Shown in pieces: positions 259 through 56,780 of a stretch of DNA of 64,000 bases. How positions within the stretch are numbered: position 1 is the stretch's first letter; every line of letters begins with the position of its first letter. The stretch spans positions 293,276-357,275 of IMG/VR virus record IMGVR_UViG_3300037067_018912; one strand, given 5' to 3'. Below the pieces are notes generated by a model that was not told where the DNA came from, did not search any database, and saw only the letters and a list, made by a program, of their open reading frames with translations. The position numbers and the translations under genes were made by a program. The DNA is from a virus. Lineage: Duplodnaviria > Caudoviricetes.

Positions 259-265
259 TTTTTTT

Positions 266-291
266 TGTAACCTTCTTATTATTTATACGTA
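266..291 (+). promoter_or_regulatory. ECF-type promoter for the RNA cluster, overlapping a host-type TATCTTTG -7 box
   Basis: TGTAAC 266-271, 16-nt spacer, CGTA 288-291; TATCTTTG 290-297. Confidence 0.75.
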
Positions 292-305
292 TCTTTGTAT
301 CATAT

Positions 306-472
306 GGGGATGTGGACAAATTGGTAAAGTCGCTTGCATGTTTACGCACAGCAGGAGAGACGGAGAGTGTACATCATAACCGTTGGGTTACAGTTGATAA
401 TTTTATGGCGGTGCGCACCGCTGTATTATGAAGACCTATAATCTTTGGGGGTTCGAGTCCCCCCCTTCCCCA
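306..472 (+). tRNA. tRNA-like RNA with 13-nt anticodon loop and ~90-nt variable region
   Basis: GGGGATG/CTTCCCC acceptor, GAC-AAATTGGTAAA-GTC D arm, CTTGC/GCAGG stem, GGGGG-TTCGAGT-CCCCC T arm. Confidence 0.65.
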
Positions 473-564
473 CGATGTCGACCGGAAGGTCGGCATTAAT
501 GTAAGGTTGAATTAAGGGTGCATGAATCTGCAGATAACATGCATCGAATAGTCTTCCAAGCATT

Positions 565-632
565 AGCGATGTAACTCAGTTGGTAGAGTGCTCCAGAAGG
601 AGAAGTCGCAGGTTCGAATCCTGCTGTCGCAA
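565..632 (+). tRNA. tRNA-like RNA with truncated anticodon arm (4 bp + AGAA tetraloop)
   Basis: GCGATG/TGTCGC acceptor, ACTC-AGTTGGTA-GAGT D arm, CTCC-AGAA-GGAG, GCAGG-TTCGAAT-CCTGC T arm. Confidence 0.75.
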
Positions 633-652
633 CTAAAAGTTCTTTGATGATT

Positions 653-869
653 TAAAGTCTTTCCGCTTGAAGCAGAGCAGCACGAATAGTTGAAAAAAAC
701 AGCGTTAACGATGATTCCATTACGGTCATCACGTAAGTGCAGGCTGATGCAGAGGCCGTTGTTTTGTGTAAAGGTGATCGCCGCCAAGTGAAGCAATCTG
801 GTAAGGGCAGATCGGTGAAAAATGGTTGAACGCCAATCATTCTCCTGCAAATGGGACGGAAAGACTTTA
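653..869 (+). ncRNA. Unassigned ~217-nt structured RNA
   Basis: Perfect 13-bp terminal stem TAAAGTCTTTCCG (653-665)/CGGAAAGACTTTA (857-869), lying between tRNA-like genes. Confidence 0.55.
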
Positions 870-872
870 TCT

Positions 873-1077
873 GGTGTCGTGGCGAAATTGGTAGACGCAG
901 CATTCATAAAGAGTGCCATAACGTAGGAATCGGTAGTAAAACCAAATTCTTGAATAGGGGTTACTGTAACGCAAGTTGCACACTGCGAAAAAGATGGGAG
1001 AATAGGACAGGATTCCGGTGGGCGAGTAATAAAGAGTGCCGGGGCGACCCGTGGAGGTTCAAGTCCTTCGGACACCG
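873..1077 (+). tRNA. tRNA-Leu(TAA)-like gene interrupted by a 123-nt insertion
   Basis: GGTGTC/GACACC acceptor, Leu-type D arm, GCATT-CATAAAG-AGTGC anticodon arm, GGG-GCGA-CCC variable arm, T arm; direct repeat ATAAAGAGTGCC at 906-917 and 1029-1040. Confidence 0.75.
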
Positions 1078-1080
1078 CAT

Positions 1081-1161
1081 GGTTGGGTAACTTAAAAATT
1101 AGAGTGGTATTCCTGAAATAGTTGGTAACGCCAGATGTTGGTTCAAGTCCAACCCCAACCG
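1081..1161 (+). tRNA. tRNA-like RNA with enlarged anticodon arm
   Basis: Perfect GGTTGGG/CCCAACC acceptor, GTTGG-TTCAAGT-CCAAC T arm, ~15-nt anticodon loop, D loop lacks GG. Confidence 0.7.
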
Positions 1162-55595: not shown

Positions 55596-56780
55596 TTAGT
55601 GCGCTTTGAAGTTGTAGAGCGGCTTTATGGTGTCGACGATATCCACGGTGTCCGTGATAGCCGCCTTGATTTCTTCAATGGACTTGTAAGCCTGTGGTGC
55701 TTCGTCGAGAGTTTCAGTACCCACTGAGGTCGTATAGATTCCCTTCATCGACTTAGCGAAGTCTCCCATATCGAGGTTCTTCTTCGCCATGCTCCTGCTC
55801 ATGAGTCTACCTGCACCGTGAGGTGCGGAATAGTTCCAATCTTCGTTACCCTTACCAATACATAACAGCGAACCGTCACGCATATTGATTGGAATAAGGA
55901 GTTTCTCATCCTTTTCAGCACTTACCGCACCCTTACGTAGGATCATACGCTTGAAATCGATATAGTTGTGGATGGTCTCAAACCTCGATTCCTCGTATAG
56001 GTTCATCTCATCCAATATGATCATAGCCATCGTAGCACGGTTAAGGACGGCAAATAATTGCACGATCTTCATGTCGTTCATATAATCGTTGAAATCATCC
56101 CCGATCAGGAAAGCCAATTCCTTGTCAGTTACAGGCTTCTTGATCTTCTTCAATTCCACAGCAATATCCTTCTCACGACCTTCGGCCTTTAAACGCTTGA
56201 TAAGGTTATCCTTTATCTTACCCATTTCATTTGCGTTGGAGAATGCTAAGTCCTGATAGTACTTACACACATCACCGCCGAGTTTCCTGCTTCCGGAGTG
56301 TATAACAAGATACAACTTTCCTGTGGACTCGGACTTACCAACCTCGATGAAGTGGTTTCCACCACCCAATGAACCGAGTGATAAAGCCGCCCTTTGCAAG
56401 TCAACACGCTTTTGACAACGAAGTCCTGAAAAGTCGAACTTCGCCCTTGACTTGGAGTGTACATCGAAACCGTTTGGAACTTGGGACTTGATAATTTCAT
56501 CCAATTTCTTGAAGTCGATATCAACCTCCTTTAATTCAACAGTCAACATACCACATCCGATATCGACACCCACGAGGTTTGGGGTGATCTTATCAATGAC
56601 GGTCATGGTCGTACCAACCGTGCAACCCTTCCCGGCGTGTGCGTCAGGCATGATACGGATTTTAGAATCCTGGTATGCCTCGAAGTTACACATCTTCTTT
56701 ACTTGCTCGAATGCTTCGTATTCGAAGGTCTCAGCAAAGATGAGGGTTTCAATACCTTTTATGTTGGTTATGATCTTCAT
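55596..56780 (-). CDS. rtcB: RtcB RNA 3'-phosphate/5'-OH ligase
   Basis: MPDAH.GKG, VGVDIGCG, GGGNHFIE, HSGSR, HNY, RKGA, SAPHGAGR, DEAP.AYK. Confidence 0.95.
   Translation of the reverse strand: MKIITNIKGIETLIFAETFEYEAFEQVKKMCNFEAYQDSKIRIMPDAHAGKGCTVGTTMTVIDKITPNLVGVDIGCGMLTVELKEVDIDFKKLDEIIKSQVPNGFDVHSKSRAKFDFSGLRCQKRVDLQRAALSLGSLGGGNHFIEVGKSESTGKLYLVIHSGSRKLGGDVCKYYQDLAFSNANEMGKIKDNLIKRLKAEGREKDIAVELKKIKKPVTDKELAFLIGDDFNDYMNDMKIVQLFAVLNRATMAMIILDEMNLYEESRFETIHNYIDFKRMILRKGAVSAEKDEKLLIPINMRDGSLLCIGKGNEDWNYSAPHGAGRLMSRSMAKKNLDMGDFAKSMKGIYTTSVGTETLDEAPQAYKSIEEIKAAITDTVDIVDTIKPLYNFKAH

What the first reader, a model, noticed from the sequence alone, without database searches (positions are those of the whole stretch)
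873..1077. tRNA-Leu(TAA) split by a 123-nt insert bounded by a 12-bp direct repeat over the anticodon
Seen: ATAAAGAGTGCC occurs at 906-917 and 1029-1040. Deleting one copy plus the 111 nt between them yields a complete 82-nt class II tRNA-Leu (position 33 is A rather than U). The repeat includes the anticodon and the 3' stem strand, so the 5' strand GCATT can pair with either copy. Established: tRNA anticodon regions are integration targets, and Leu(UAA) hosts group I introns, but this insert is shorter than typical group I introns. Inference: a miniature intron, a DNA-level excisable switch, or an integration scar.
Basis: partly seen in the sequence, partly recalled or inferred. Interest (0 to 1): 0.75.

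Follow-up and report, generated by a model that had tools for sequence, protein, structure and literature searches.

The report
Conserved tRNA-like RNA with inserted domain
A giant phage encodes a leucine-tRNA-shaped RNA whose anticodon arm is interrupted by a conserved 123-base piece bounded by a repeated 12-mer; it is most likely a non-decoding tRNA mimic, one of an undescribed operon of such mimics, and not a classic intron or a fresh insertion scar.

Summary
The 12-mer occurs at 906-917 and 1029-1040 (about 1 in 1000 by chance). Removing 123 nt gives an RNA that ARAGORN calls tRNA-Leu(UAA) at default settings.

The window is the end of a 357-kb phage with about 60 normal tRNAs, a tmRNA and an RtcB ligase. 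One relative (L131:2065-2283) carries the same gene with its insert: 78% identity, both repeat copies kept (12/12 and 11/12), invariant blocks next to diverged ones, a hairpin of variable length, and three compensatory pair changes. So the insert is maintained. It is not junk or a recent scar.

It is not a group I intron: no Rfam match, too short, and the U/G splice rule cannot be met. There is no bulge-helix-bulge motif, and the phage has no splicing endonuclease gene.

The "restored" loop has A33 and a pairing 32-38, kept in both phages; none of the phage's 59 tRNAs has A33.

The gene sits in a promoter-driven operon of tRNA-like RNAs that all lack normal anticodon loops. Members of this operon recur, in varying sets, in related phages.

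Best reading (about 0.5): an unspliced tRNA mimic with an expanded anticodon/variable domain and two alternative folds. Cutting at twin hairpins followed by RtcB joining is not excluded (about 0.17). The same scan noted this stretch before, on this genome only.

The parts
259..300 (+). Promoter-like motif in front of the ncRNA operon (T-run, -35-like hexamer, 16-18 nt spacer, -10-like box)
   Evidence: The same motif precedes the equivalent ncRNA operons in L131, L132, L133, L137, L143, L145 and L118. The generic sigma-70 scan does not call it.
873..905 (+). 5' part of the tRNA-like body: acceptor 5' strand 873-879, D arm 882-898 (Leu type), 5' strand of the anticodon stem 900-905
   Evidence: ARAGORN cloverleaf. 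There are 2 differences from L131 in 33 nt.
906..917 (+). Repeat copy 1: loop plus 3' strand of the proximal anticodon-like hairpin
   Evidence: Identical in L131, together with the next 10 nt.
918..1028 (+). 111 nt between the copies. Conserved blocks are about 918-927, 947-970, 975-999 and 1018-1028; diverged stretches are about 928-946 and 1000-1017
   Evidence: Alignment with L131. Single copy in the genome. No Rfam family matches.
942..997 (+). Central irregular hairpin domain of the insert; its tip hairpin 965-980 is capped by a GNRA tetraloop
   Evidence: RNAalifold consensus. Pair 957/986 changes G-C to A-U in L131. The tip hairpin keeps its stem, but its loop grows from 4 to 16 nt in L131.
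1021..1040 (+). Second, pseudo-anticodon hairpin containing repeat copy 2 (1029-1040): 4 standard pairs, two G-A/A-G mismatches that could be tandem sheared pairs (inferred, not tested), one closing pair
   Evidence: Read from the sequence and from the consensus fold. Both substitutions in L131 (at 1024 and 1034) turn G-U pairs into A-U pairs.
1041..1077 (+). 3' part of the tRNA-like body: short variable arm with a GNRA loop (1041-1050), T arm (1053-1069), acceptor 3' strand (1070-1076), discriminator G1077
   Evidence: ARAGORN. T-stem pair 1055/1067 changes A-U to G-C in L131.
306..472 (+). Neighbour RNA 1: tRNA-like, with a hairpin at the anticodon position followed by a variable region of about 90 nt
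   Evidence: Homologs in G003 (72%), L131 (85%), L133 (85%). By eye also in L121, L147 and, in short form, L145.
565..632 (+). Neighbour RNA 2: mini-tRNA whose anticodon arm is a 4-bp stem with a tetraloop
   Evidence: Rfam tRNA 45.8 bits with a 12-nt anticodon arm. L122 has a counterpart with a different 4-bp stem and a different tetraloop.
653..869 (+). Neighbour structured RNA closed by a perfect 13-bp helix
   Evidence: Inverted repeat I2. Fold z-score -3.15. Partial homologs in L133 and L143.
1081..1161 (+). Neighbour RNA 4: tRNA-like with a 26-nt anticodon region and no U33
   Evidence: Rfam tRNA 39.3 bits. 80% identical homolog in L145/L146.
55596..56780 (-). RtcB RNA ligase gene. It is a possible partner only under the splicing rival
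   Evidence: Pfam PF01139, E 7e-60.

Best explanation
Window 873-1077 encodes a stable, non-decoding tRNA mimic. It is transcribed from the conserved promoter at about 259-300 as part of a multi-RNA precursor. Its intact acceptor, D and T arms give it the tRNA shape. That shape is expected (inferred) to let RNase P and the 3' processing enzymes cut it out and to keep it stable. The 'insert' is not removed. It is an expansion of the anticodon/variable region, as in the neighbouring RNA 1 family, and it carries a conserved irregular hairpin domain (942-997). The second copy of the 12-mer builds a second anticodon-like hairpin (1021-1040). Because the 12-mer is duplicated, the RNA has two near-equal folds: (A) a proximal anticodon-like hairpin plus the second hairpin, each showing the same A/U-rich five-base loop; or (B) a long-range helix 900-905/1034-1039 that closes around the whole insert. 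I infer that the molecule acts by binding, not by decoding. The likeliest role is as a decoy or sponge for a factor that recognises tRNA shape and the anticodon hairpin, for example a host tRNA-directed nuclease or modifying enzyme. Shown here: conservation, structure, operon context, absence of known intron signatures. Inferred: expression, processing, lack of splicing, binding role.
For: 1. The insert is under selection. The L131 homolog is 78% identical over 223 nt, with invariant blocks (including both 12-mer copies and their inner flanks) next to stretches of about 50% identity, and a hairpin with a conserved stem but a variable loop.
2. There are three compensatory pair changes (905/1034, 957/986, 1055/1067) and none in any slid control.
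3. The restored loop is not an anticodon loop. A33 is kept in both phages, and 32-38 covaries C-G to U-A, which implies a 6-bp stem with a 5-nt loop. Of 59 tRNAs in this phage, 55 have U33, none has A33, and only one has C32-G38.
4. The discriminator is G, whereas the two genuine Leu tRNA genes I checked by eye have A. The G-G mismatch at 7-66 is conserved.
5. The phage already has a canonical tRNA-Leu(UAA).
6. All four tRNA-like genes of the operon have sound acceptor, D and T arms but abnormal anticodon regions. Relatives carry the same kinds with compensating changes: a stem plus tetraloop in L122 and L145; RNA 1 relatives with variable regions of about 90-110 nt in G003, L121, L131, L133 and L147, and with none in L145.
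7. A conserved promoter-like motif precedes the operon in eight phages.
8. No known intron or ribozyme family matches, and the phage has no tRNA-splicing endonuclease gene.
9. The two folds are within 0.7 kcal/mol. RNAalifold chooses fold A; single-sequence MFE chooses fold B.
Against: - Only two sequences carry this RNA, so covariation is thin: 49 of 500 shuffles reach the observed values.
- The insert's folding energy is not better than shuffles (z -0.8 to -1.8).
- Alternative pairing explains why the 3' stem strand is duplicated, but not why the five loop bases are duplicated too.
- Exact removal of 123 nt gives a product good enough for ARAGORN's default threshold, and the phage has RtcB. 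Both fit splicing.
- There is no expression data.
- The operon is absent from the closest relative found (L114), and this RNA is absent from eight other complete or near-complete related genomes. It is therefore dispensable and could be drifting.
- The proposed binding partner is a guess.
Confidence: 0.5

Rival explanations
1. An intron that needs proteins. In fold A the two copies of the 12-mer sit in two hairpins with the same loop. An endoribonuclease that recognises this loop and its 3' stem cuts both at the same position. The phage's RtcB then joins the outer halves into an 82-nt Leu-type tRNA or tRNA-like RNA. This is the logic of Ire1 plus RtcB splicing of XBP1/HAC1, or of archaeal tRNA splicing.
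For: Exact excision gives a cloverleaf that ARAGORN accepts at default settings. An RtcB gene is present. Both copies, including the loop bases, are conserved in L131, which a shared recognition site would explain. The 905/1034 covariation keeps the stem of the joined product. The tRNA body is well kept, with a compensatory change in the T stem.
Against: No endonuclease candidate was found: PF01974 is absent from the phage, and no RNase domain appears among the 10 ORFs scanned next to RtcB. There is no bulge-helix-bulge motif (read from the sequence). The product would have A33, a pairing 32-38, G73 and a 7-66 mismatch, so it would decode poorly. Sister RNAs in the operon lack anticodon loops without having any insert to remove. 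A normal tRNA-Leu(UAA) already exists. RtcB is common in phages as a tRNA repair enzyme (established knowledge).
Confidence: 0.17
2. A dead gene. A tRNA-Leu gene was broken by a DNA insertion that duplicated 12 bp of target, or by an integration event at the anticodon loop. The locus is now a pseudogene carried along in a variable region.
For: A short direct repeat flanking an insert is the classic mark of transposition or integration, and tRNA anticodon loops are known integration targets (established knowledge). The operon is absent from the nearest relative L114, and this RNA is missing from most relatives. The insert's fold is not unusually stable.
Against: Both repeat copies and four insert blocks are nearly invariant between two phages whose other insert segments are only about 50% identical. 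There are compensatory changes inside the insert and in the T stem. The insert is single copy in the genome, has no terminal inverted repeats, and has no match in the phage or plasmid collections or in viral, metagenome or genome contigs. No integrase or transposase gene lies beside it (ORF list).
Confidence: 0.12
3. A DNA-level switch. Recombination or replication slippage between the two 12-bp copies deletes 123 bp in part of the phage population and turns on a tRNA gene.
For: Perfect 12-bp direct repeats 123 bp apart. The deletion product is a valid-looking tRNA gene.
Against: The sequences around the two copies share no similarity or dyad symmetry that a site-specific recombinase would need. 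In L131 the copies differ at one base, yet the rest of the insert is conserved, which a simple spacer would not need. A 23-mer covering 896-918, which an empty allele would also carry, has no match in metagenome contigs, and the overlapping 28-mer 890-917 has none in viral contigs. Records of this genome itself are excluded from those scans, so this is weak evidence.
Confidence: 0.04
4. A self-splicing or self-cleaving RNA: a very small group I-like intron, or a new small ribozyme whose cuts RtcB repairs.
For: The pattern of invariant, seemingly unpaired blocks between variable helices, together with GNRA loops, looks like a catalytic or tertiary-folded RNA. tRNA-Leu(UAA) is the classic host of bacterial group I introns (established knowledge).
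Against: No match to Intron_gpI or to any Rfam ribozyme family, even at E up to 10 on a 221-nt query. At 123 nt it is well below known group I sizes. Any junction inside the repeat puts the same base before both splice sites, and the one junction at the repeat's left edge gives C and A. The rule of U before the 5' site and G ending the intron therefore cannot be met.
Confidence: 0.04

Closest known systems
Group I introns in bacterial and plastid tRNA-Leu(UAA) genes
   Same: An intervening sequence inside the anticodon loop of a Leu(UAA)-type gene. Exact removal restores a cloverleaf.
   Different: 123 nt against roughly 200-250 nt or more. No Rfam Intron_gpI match. The U/G splice-site rule cannot be met. 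The restored loop has A33.
Archaeal/eukaryal tRNA introns (bulge-helix-bulge, EndA/Sen endonuclease, RtcB ligase)
   Same: The ambiguous junction range (32/33 to 44/45) includes the canonical 37/38 site. An RtcB ligase is encoded.
   Different: The tRNA body is of bacterial type. No 3-nt/4-bp/3-nt motif can be drawn. PF01974 is absent from the phage.
Unconventional XBP1/HAC1 splicing (Ire1 cuts twin stem-loops, RtcB or Trl1 joins)
   Same: Two hairpins with the same loop sequence at the two borders, and an RtcB ligase available.
   Different: No nuclease is known or found here. The substrate is a tRNA-like RNA in a phage. This is an analogy, not homology.
tRNA mimics and tRNA-scaffolded RNAs (tmRNA tRNA-like domain, bacterial YrlA Y RNAs, mascRNA, viral tRNA-like structures)
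   Same: Acceptor, T and D elements are kept while decoding is lost. An extra RNA domain is carried on a tRNA frame.
   Different: The ends lie at the acceptor stem, unlike YrlA. No Ro/TROVE gene is present. There is no tag reading frame as in tmRNA, and the phage has a separate tmRNA. The duplicated anticodon half-arm has no counterpart.
Class II tRNAs with long variable arms
   Same: Leu-type D arm. The extra material lies between the anticodon stem and the T arm when the RNA is read in fold A.
   Different: The extra region is about 137 nt, against about 10-25 nt. It includes a second anticodon-like hairpin.
Integration or transposition scars in tRNA genes
   Same: A short direct repeat over the anticodon loop flanks foreign-looking DNA.
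   Different: The insert and both copies are conserved with covariation in a second phage. It is single copy, has no inverted ends and has no recombinase gene nearby.

Membership tests
Group I intron | Conserved catalytic core (P3-P9) detectable by the Rfam Intron_gpI model | tested here: not met
   No match at E up to 10 in 1-2500 or in 865-1085.
Group I intron | U as the last exon base before the 5' splice site, and G as the last intron base | tested here: not met
   Every junction inside the repeat puts the same base at both places. The left-edge junction gives C905 and A1028.
Bulge-helix-bulge tRNA intron | Two 3-nt bulges separated by a 4-bp helix at the exon-intron borders | tested here: not met
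   By hand on fold B: an internal loop of 8 by 9 nt lies between helix 900-905/1034-1039 and the 4-bp helix 914-917/1021-1024. The candidate central helix has a mismatch and the bulges are unequal.
Bulge-helix-bulge tRNA intron | A splicing endonuclease (tRNA_int_endo, PF01974) is available | tested here: not met
   Absent from the 357-kb phage genome, while the control genomes gave matches. The host is unknown.
Decoding tRNA-Leu(UAA) | tRNA model score above the curated threshold | tested here: inconclusive
   The genomic sequence scores 17.6 bits against a cut-off of 29. The 123-nt deletion product passes ARAGORN's default threshold.
Decoding tRNA-Leu(UAA) | Seven-base anticodon loop with U33 and an unpaired 32-38 | tested here: not met
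   A33 in both phages. 32-38 is C-G here and U-A in L131. 0 of 59 tRNAs in this phage have A33.
Decoding tRNA-Leu(UAA) | Discriminator A73, as in the phage's Leu tRNAs and in bacterial LeuRS identity (E. coli rule, from established knowledge) | tested here: not met
   G at 1077 in both phages. A in the two genuine Leu genes I checked by eye, Leu(UAA) and Leu(GAG).
MITE or IS insertion with target-site duplication | Direct repeat flanking the element | tested here: met
   12/12 repeat.
MITE or IS insertion with target-site duplication | Terminal inverted repeats and further copies elsewhere | tested here: not met
   No inverted ends. Single copy in the genome. No match in the phage or plasmid collections or in viral, metagenome or genome contigs.
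tRNA-like ncRNA operon of this phage clade (defined here) | Lies behind the conserved promoter-like motif downstream of the DUF2227 gene | tested here: met
   G000 window 259-1161; in L131 it is the first gene after the motif.
tRNA-like ncRNA operon of this phage clade (defined here) | Sound acceptor, D and T arms with a non-canonical anticodon region, conserved in at least one other phage | tested here: met
Bacterial Y RNA (YrlA) system | Ro/TROVE protein partner, and a tRNA-like module internal to a terminal Ro-binding stem | tested here: not met
   No PF05731 in the phage. The only YrlA hit is a chance-level 19 bits elsewhere, at 421-526. The topology is the opposite.

The most novel reading that the evidence does not exclude
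A phage tRNA-type gene carries a new kind of bacterial-world intron that needs no ribozyme. Twin hairpins with identical loops are cut at matching positions by a still unknown endoribonuclease, possibly a host anticodon nuclease. The phage's RtcB then seals the halves, so a Leu-type tRNA or tRNA mimic is made only when that nuclease is active.
Probability: 0.15. Interest if true: 0.9.

Novelty: new variant of a known kind. Interest (0 to 1): 0.6.

Why it matters
tRNA biology is a main battleground between phages and bacteria: anticodon nucleases on the host side, and tRNA sets and RNA ligases on the phage side. This phage clade maintains a promoter-driven operon of RNAs that keep the tRNA shape but have lost, or elaborately rebuilt, the anticodon arm. 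Such RNAs cannot decode, so they must act by being bound or processed. I found no description of this operon, or of this Leu-type member, in Rfam or in the papers searched.

If they are decoys, they would be a new RNA-based counter-defence. If the Leu-type member is spliced by a nuclease plus RtcB, it would be the first intron of that kind outside archaea and eukaryotes. In either case, tRNA finders and Rfam miss or misread these genes.

Tried and rejected
- **Group I intron or known ribozymes:** no Rfam match.
- **Bulge-helix-bulge intron:** no motif can be drawn and the phage has no endonuclease gene.
- **Y RNA system:** no TROVE protein.
- **Multi-copy mobile element:** the insert is single copy.
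- **Tandem duplication of a tRNA with a 123-nt period:** by eye, the regions after copy 1 and before copy 2 do not resemble the tRNA halves.
- **Homology between this insert and the RNA 1 insert:** none beyond the tRNA parts.
- **A closely related tRNA body elsewhere in G000 or G003:** none. The best is 74%, driven by the D arm.
- **Searches for further homologs that found nothing:**
  - phage collection and plasmid collection;
  - viral contigs with three patterns;
  - metagenome contigs;
  - genome contigs;
  - covariance model R1 on four complete related genomes and about 45 loci.
- **Flanking-gene route:** this succeeded only for L131. The other look-ups gave operons without this RNA.
- **Antisense pairing of 918-952 with the 5' leader of ORF 1262:** -25 kcal/mol, about 12th of 47,630 genome windows. 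The leader is the same in L114, which lacks the RNA. That part of the insert is not conserved in L131, where I found no clear target. I treat it as probably chance.
- **RNase candidates next to RtcB:** none by Pfam.

Full report
**Setting.** The window is the last 64 kb of a 357,275-bp virus record with direct terminal repeats. The genome carries about 60 tRNA genes and a tmRNA at 249-283 kb. Among them are a canonical 88-nt tRNA-Leu(UAA) and two suppressor-type tRNAs. An RtcB ligase gene lies at window 55596-56780 on the minus strand. The finding lies about 10 kb past the tRNA arrays.

**Observation.**
- The 12-mer is present exactly at 906-917 and 1029-1040. The flanking bases differ on both sides, so the repeat has sharp edges.
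- A direct repeat this long appears in 6 of 5000 dinucleotide shuffles of 873-1077.
- ARAGORN finds nothing in the window by default. With its intron option it finds the gene.
- Joining 873-905 to 1029-1077 gives a class II tRNA-Leu(taa) at ARAGORN's default threshold.
- Rfam's tRNA model spans 873-1077 at only 17.6 bits.
- The body is sound: six of seven acceptor pairs, a Leu-type D arm, a canonical T loop, and a 4-bp variable arm.
- Four details argue against an ordinary decoder: A at position 33, a C32-G38 pair, a G-G mismatch at 7-66, and G as discriminator.
- None of the phage's 59 ordinary tRNAs has A33, and only one has C32-G38.

**Known intron types.**
- No Rfam family other than tRNA matches the region, even with lax filters.
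- A group I intron is excluded on three counts: size, no core match, and splice-site logic. Any junction within the repeat puts the same base before both splice sites.
- I could not draw a bulge-helix-bulge motif, and the phage has no PF01974 endonuclease.
- The insert is single copy in the genome and has no inverted ends.
- Its predicted folding energy is not better than that of shuffles (z -0.8 to -1.8).

**Relatives.** The large terminase identified a clade of related phages of about 325-365 kb.
- Synteny with the nearest complete one (G003, terminase 83% identical) is good on both sides of the locus. There, only the first tRNA-like RNA of the operon is present.
- The closest relative reached through the downstream gene (L114, 88% identical protein) has no ncRNA genes at all between the same two flanking genes. 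It has a small ORF instead, although the downstream gene's promoter and leader are conserved.
- The conserved upstream gene (DUF2227) served as an anchor for sampling the locus in many relatives.

**The second copy of the gene.** One contig, L131 (an NCBI metagenome assembly), carries a clear homolog of 873-1077 at 2065-2283. It is 78% identical over 223 nt, has an insert of 134 nt, and is the first gene behind the operon's promoter-like motif.
- The conservation pattern is uneven. The exons differ at very few positions.
- Copy 1 of the 12-mer and the next 10 nt are identical. Copy 2 differs at one base, and the 11 nt before it differ at one base.
- Two inner blocks (about 947-970 and 975-999) are nearly invariant, whereas 928-946 and 1000-1017 are only about half identical.
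- The tip hairpin 965-980 keeps its 6-bp stem while its loop grows from a GNRA tetraloop to 16 nt.
- Three base pairs change on both sides and stay paired: 905/1034 (C-G to U-A), 957/986 (G-C to A-U) and the T-stem pair 1055/1067 (A-U to G-C). No slid control shows any such change.
- With two sequences this is suggestive, not proof: 49 of 500 shuffles do as well.
- Even so, junk DNA diverging at the rate of the variable stretches would not keep both 12-mers.

**Two folds.** The 5' strand 900-905 can pair with 911-916 or with 1034-1039. The segment 1021-1024 can pair with 914-917 or with 1037-1040. Constrained folds of the two arrangements differ by 0.7 kcal/mol.
- In fold A the RNA has a normal-looking anticodon hairpin and then a region of about 137 nt before the T arm. 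That region contains the central domain, a second hairpin built on copy 2, and the short GNRA-capped variable arm.
- In fold B a long-range helix closes around the insert.
- RNAalifold prefers A. The single-sequence minimum-energy folds prefer B.
- The three substitutions in L131 that touch these helices fit both folds.
- The 32-38 covariation implies a 6-bp stem with a five-base loop in either fold and in any spliced product. That is not an anticodon loop.

**Operon context.**
- In this window a promoter-like motif at about 259-300 is followed by four tRNA-like genes (306-472, 565-632, 873-1077, 1081-1161) and a 217-nt structured RNA (653-869). All four tRNA-like genes have good acceptor, D and T arms and abnormal anticodon regions.
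- The same promoter-like motif precedes equivalent operons in at least seven relatives.
- Their content varies, but the theme repeats:
  - mini-tRNAs in which a short stem and tetraloop replace the anticodon arm, with different stems in different phages;
  - relatives of the first RNA, with a hairpin at the anticodon position and a variable region of 0 to about 110 nt;
  - a homolog of the fourth RNA;
  - another tRNA-like gene with a 147-nt piece in its anticodon loop and no similarity to this insert.
- Defects confined to the anticodon arm, together with compensating changes elsewhere, are not what random decay gives. These RNAs are selected for tRNA shape without decoding.
- By analogy with the first RNA's family, the "insert" of 873-1077 reads naturally as an expanded anticodon/variable region.

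**Conclusion.**
- Most likely (about 0.5), 873-1077 encodes an unspliced tRNA mimic with a conserved extra domain and a duplicated anticodon half-arm that allows two folds. That it acts by being bound, for instance as a decoy for a tRNA-directed host enzyme, is my inference.
- Splicing by an unknown endonuclease at the twin loops, followed by RtcB ligation, explains the duplicated loop bases better. It remains open (about 0.17) but lacks a nuclease candidate and yields a poor decoder.
- A dead, interrupted gene (about 0.12), a DNA-level switch (about 0.04) and a self-splicing RNA (about 0.04) fit the conservation or the tests less well.
- Searches of the phage and plasmid collections, of viral, metagenome and genome contigs, and a covariance model run on four more complete relatives found no third copy. 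The RNA is therefore rare within the clade.
- I found no paper describing such RNAs. That is limited by the library searched.

Noticed in passing
window 306-1161; L122:2994-3529; L131:2065-3215; L133:4540-5330; L137:3990-5070; L143:1560-2480; L145:3530-4130; L147:1715-2430: A clade of 325-365 kb phages carries a variable operon of tRNA-like RNAs downstream of a DUF2227 gene. Their anticodon arms are replaced by stem-tetraloops or by large expansions, and other structured RNAs are interleaved. Almost none of it matches Rfam.
   Followed up: partly
window 639-647; also before most RNAs in L121, L131, L133, L137, L143, L147: A nine-base spacer motif (window 639-647) recurs just upstream of the individual RNAs of these operons. 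It may be a processing site. The window holds 6 copies against 1.2 expected.
   Followed up: partly
L131:3085-3215; L118:3825-3970; L133:5237-5370; L145:4000-4135: An RNA of about 130 nt, closed by a 7-bp helix, sits directly in front of the next ORF's start codon in at least ten relatives, like a leader or riboswitch. It is absent from this window. No Rfam match in L131.
   Followed up: no
L131:2500-2910; L121:4400-4830; L137:4340-4780: A conserved RNA of about 400 nt lies inside the operon of three relatives. No Rfam match in L131.
   Followed up: no
window 653-869: A 217-nt RNA with a perfect 13-bp closing helix and a fold z-score of -3.15. Partial homologs sit at the same operon position in L133, L143 and L147.
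   Followed up: partly
window 38604-38812 (minus strand): Another tRNA-like gene (8-bp acceptor stem, good D and T arms) with about 130 nt in place of the anticodon arm. It lies in an intergenic gap between minus-strand ORFs.
   Followed up: partly
genome 265389-265501 and 34764-34934 (outside the window): Two more tRNA-like sequences with 39-nt and 77-nt pieces in the anticodon loop. The first lies inside the Lys/Tyr tRNA array and scores 33 bits with Rfam's tRNA model.
   Followed up: no
window 918-952 and 1206-1250: The 5' part of the insert is complementary to the leader of the downstream ORF 1262-1588 (-25 kcal/mol, about 12th of 47,630 genome windows). The leader is unchanged in L114, which lacks the RNA, so this is probably chance.
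   Followed up: yes
genome 159493-159745 and 282907-282981 (outside the window): tRNAs with anticodons UCA and CUA (opal and amber suppressor types) in a phage whose genes read open under the standard code in this window. This may indicate late-stage stop-codon recoding.
   Followed up: no
G003 92939-93023 (L087): An 85-nt class II-shaped tRNA with anticodon UGG in a relative. It shares the D arm and anticodon-stem strand of the gene studied here but nothing else.
   Followed up: partly
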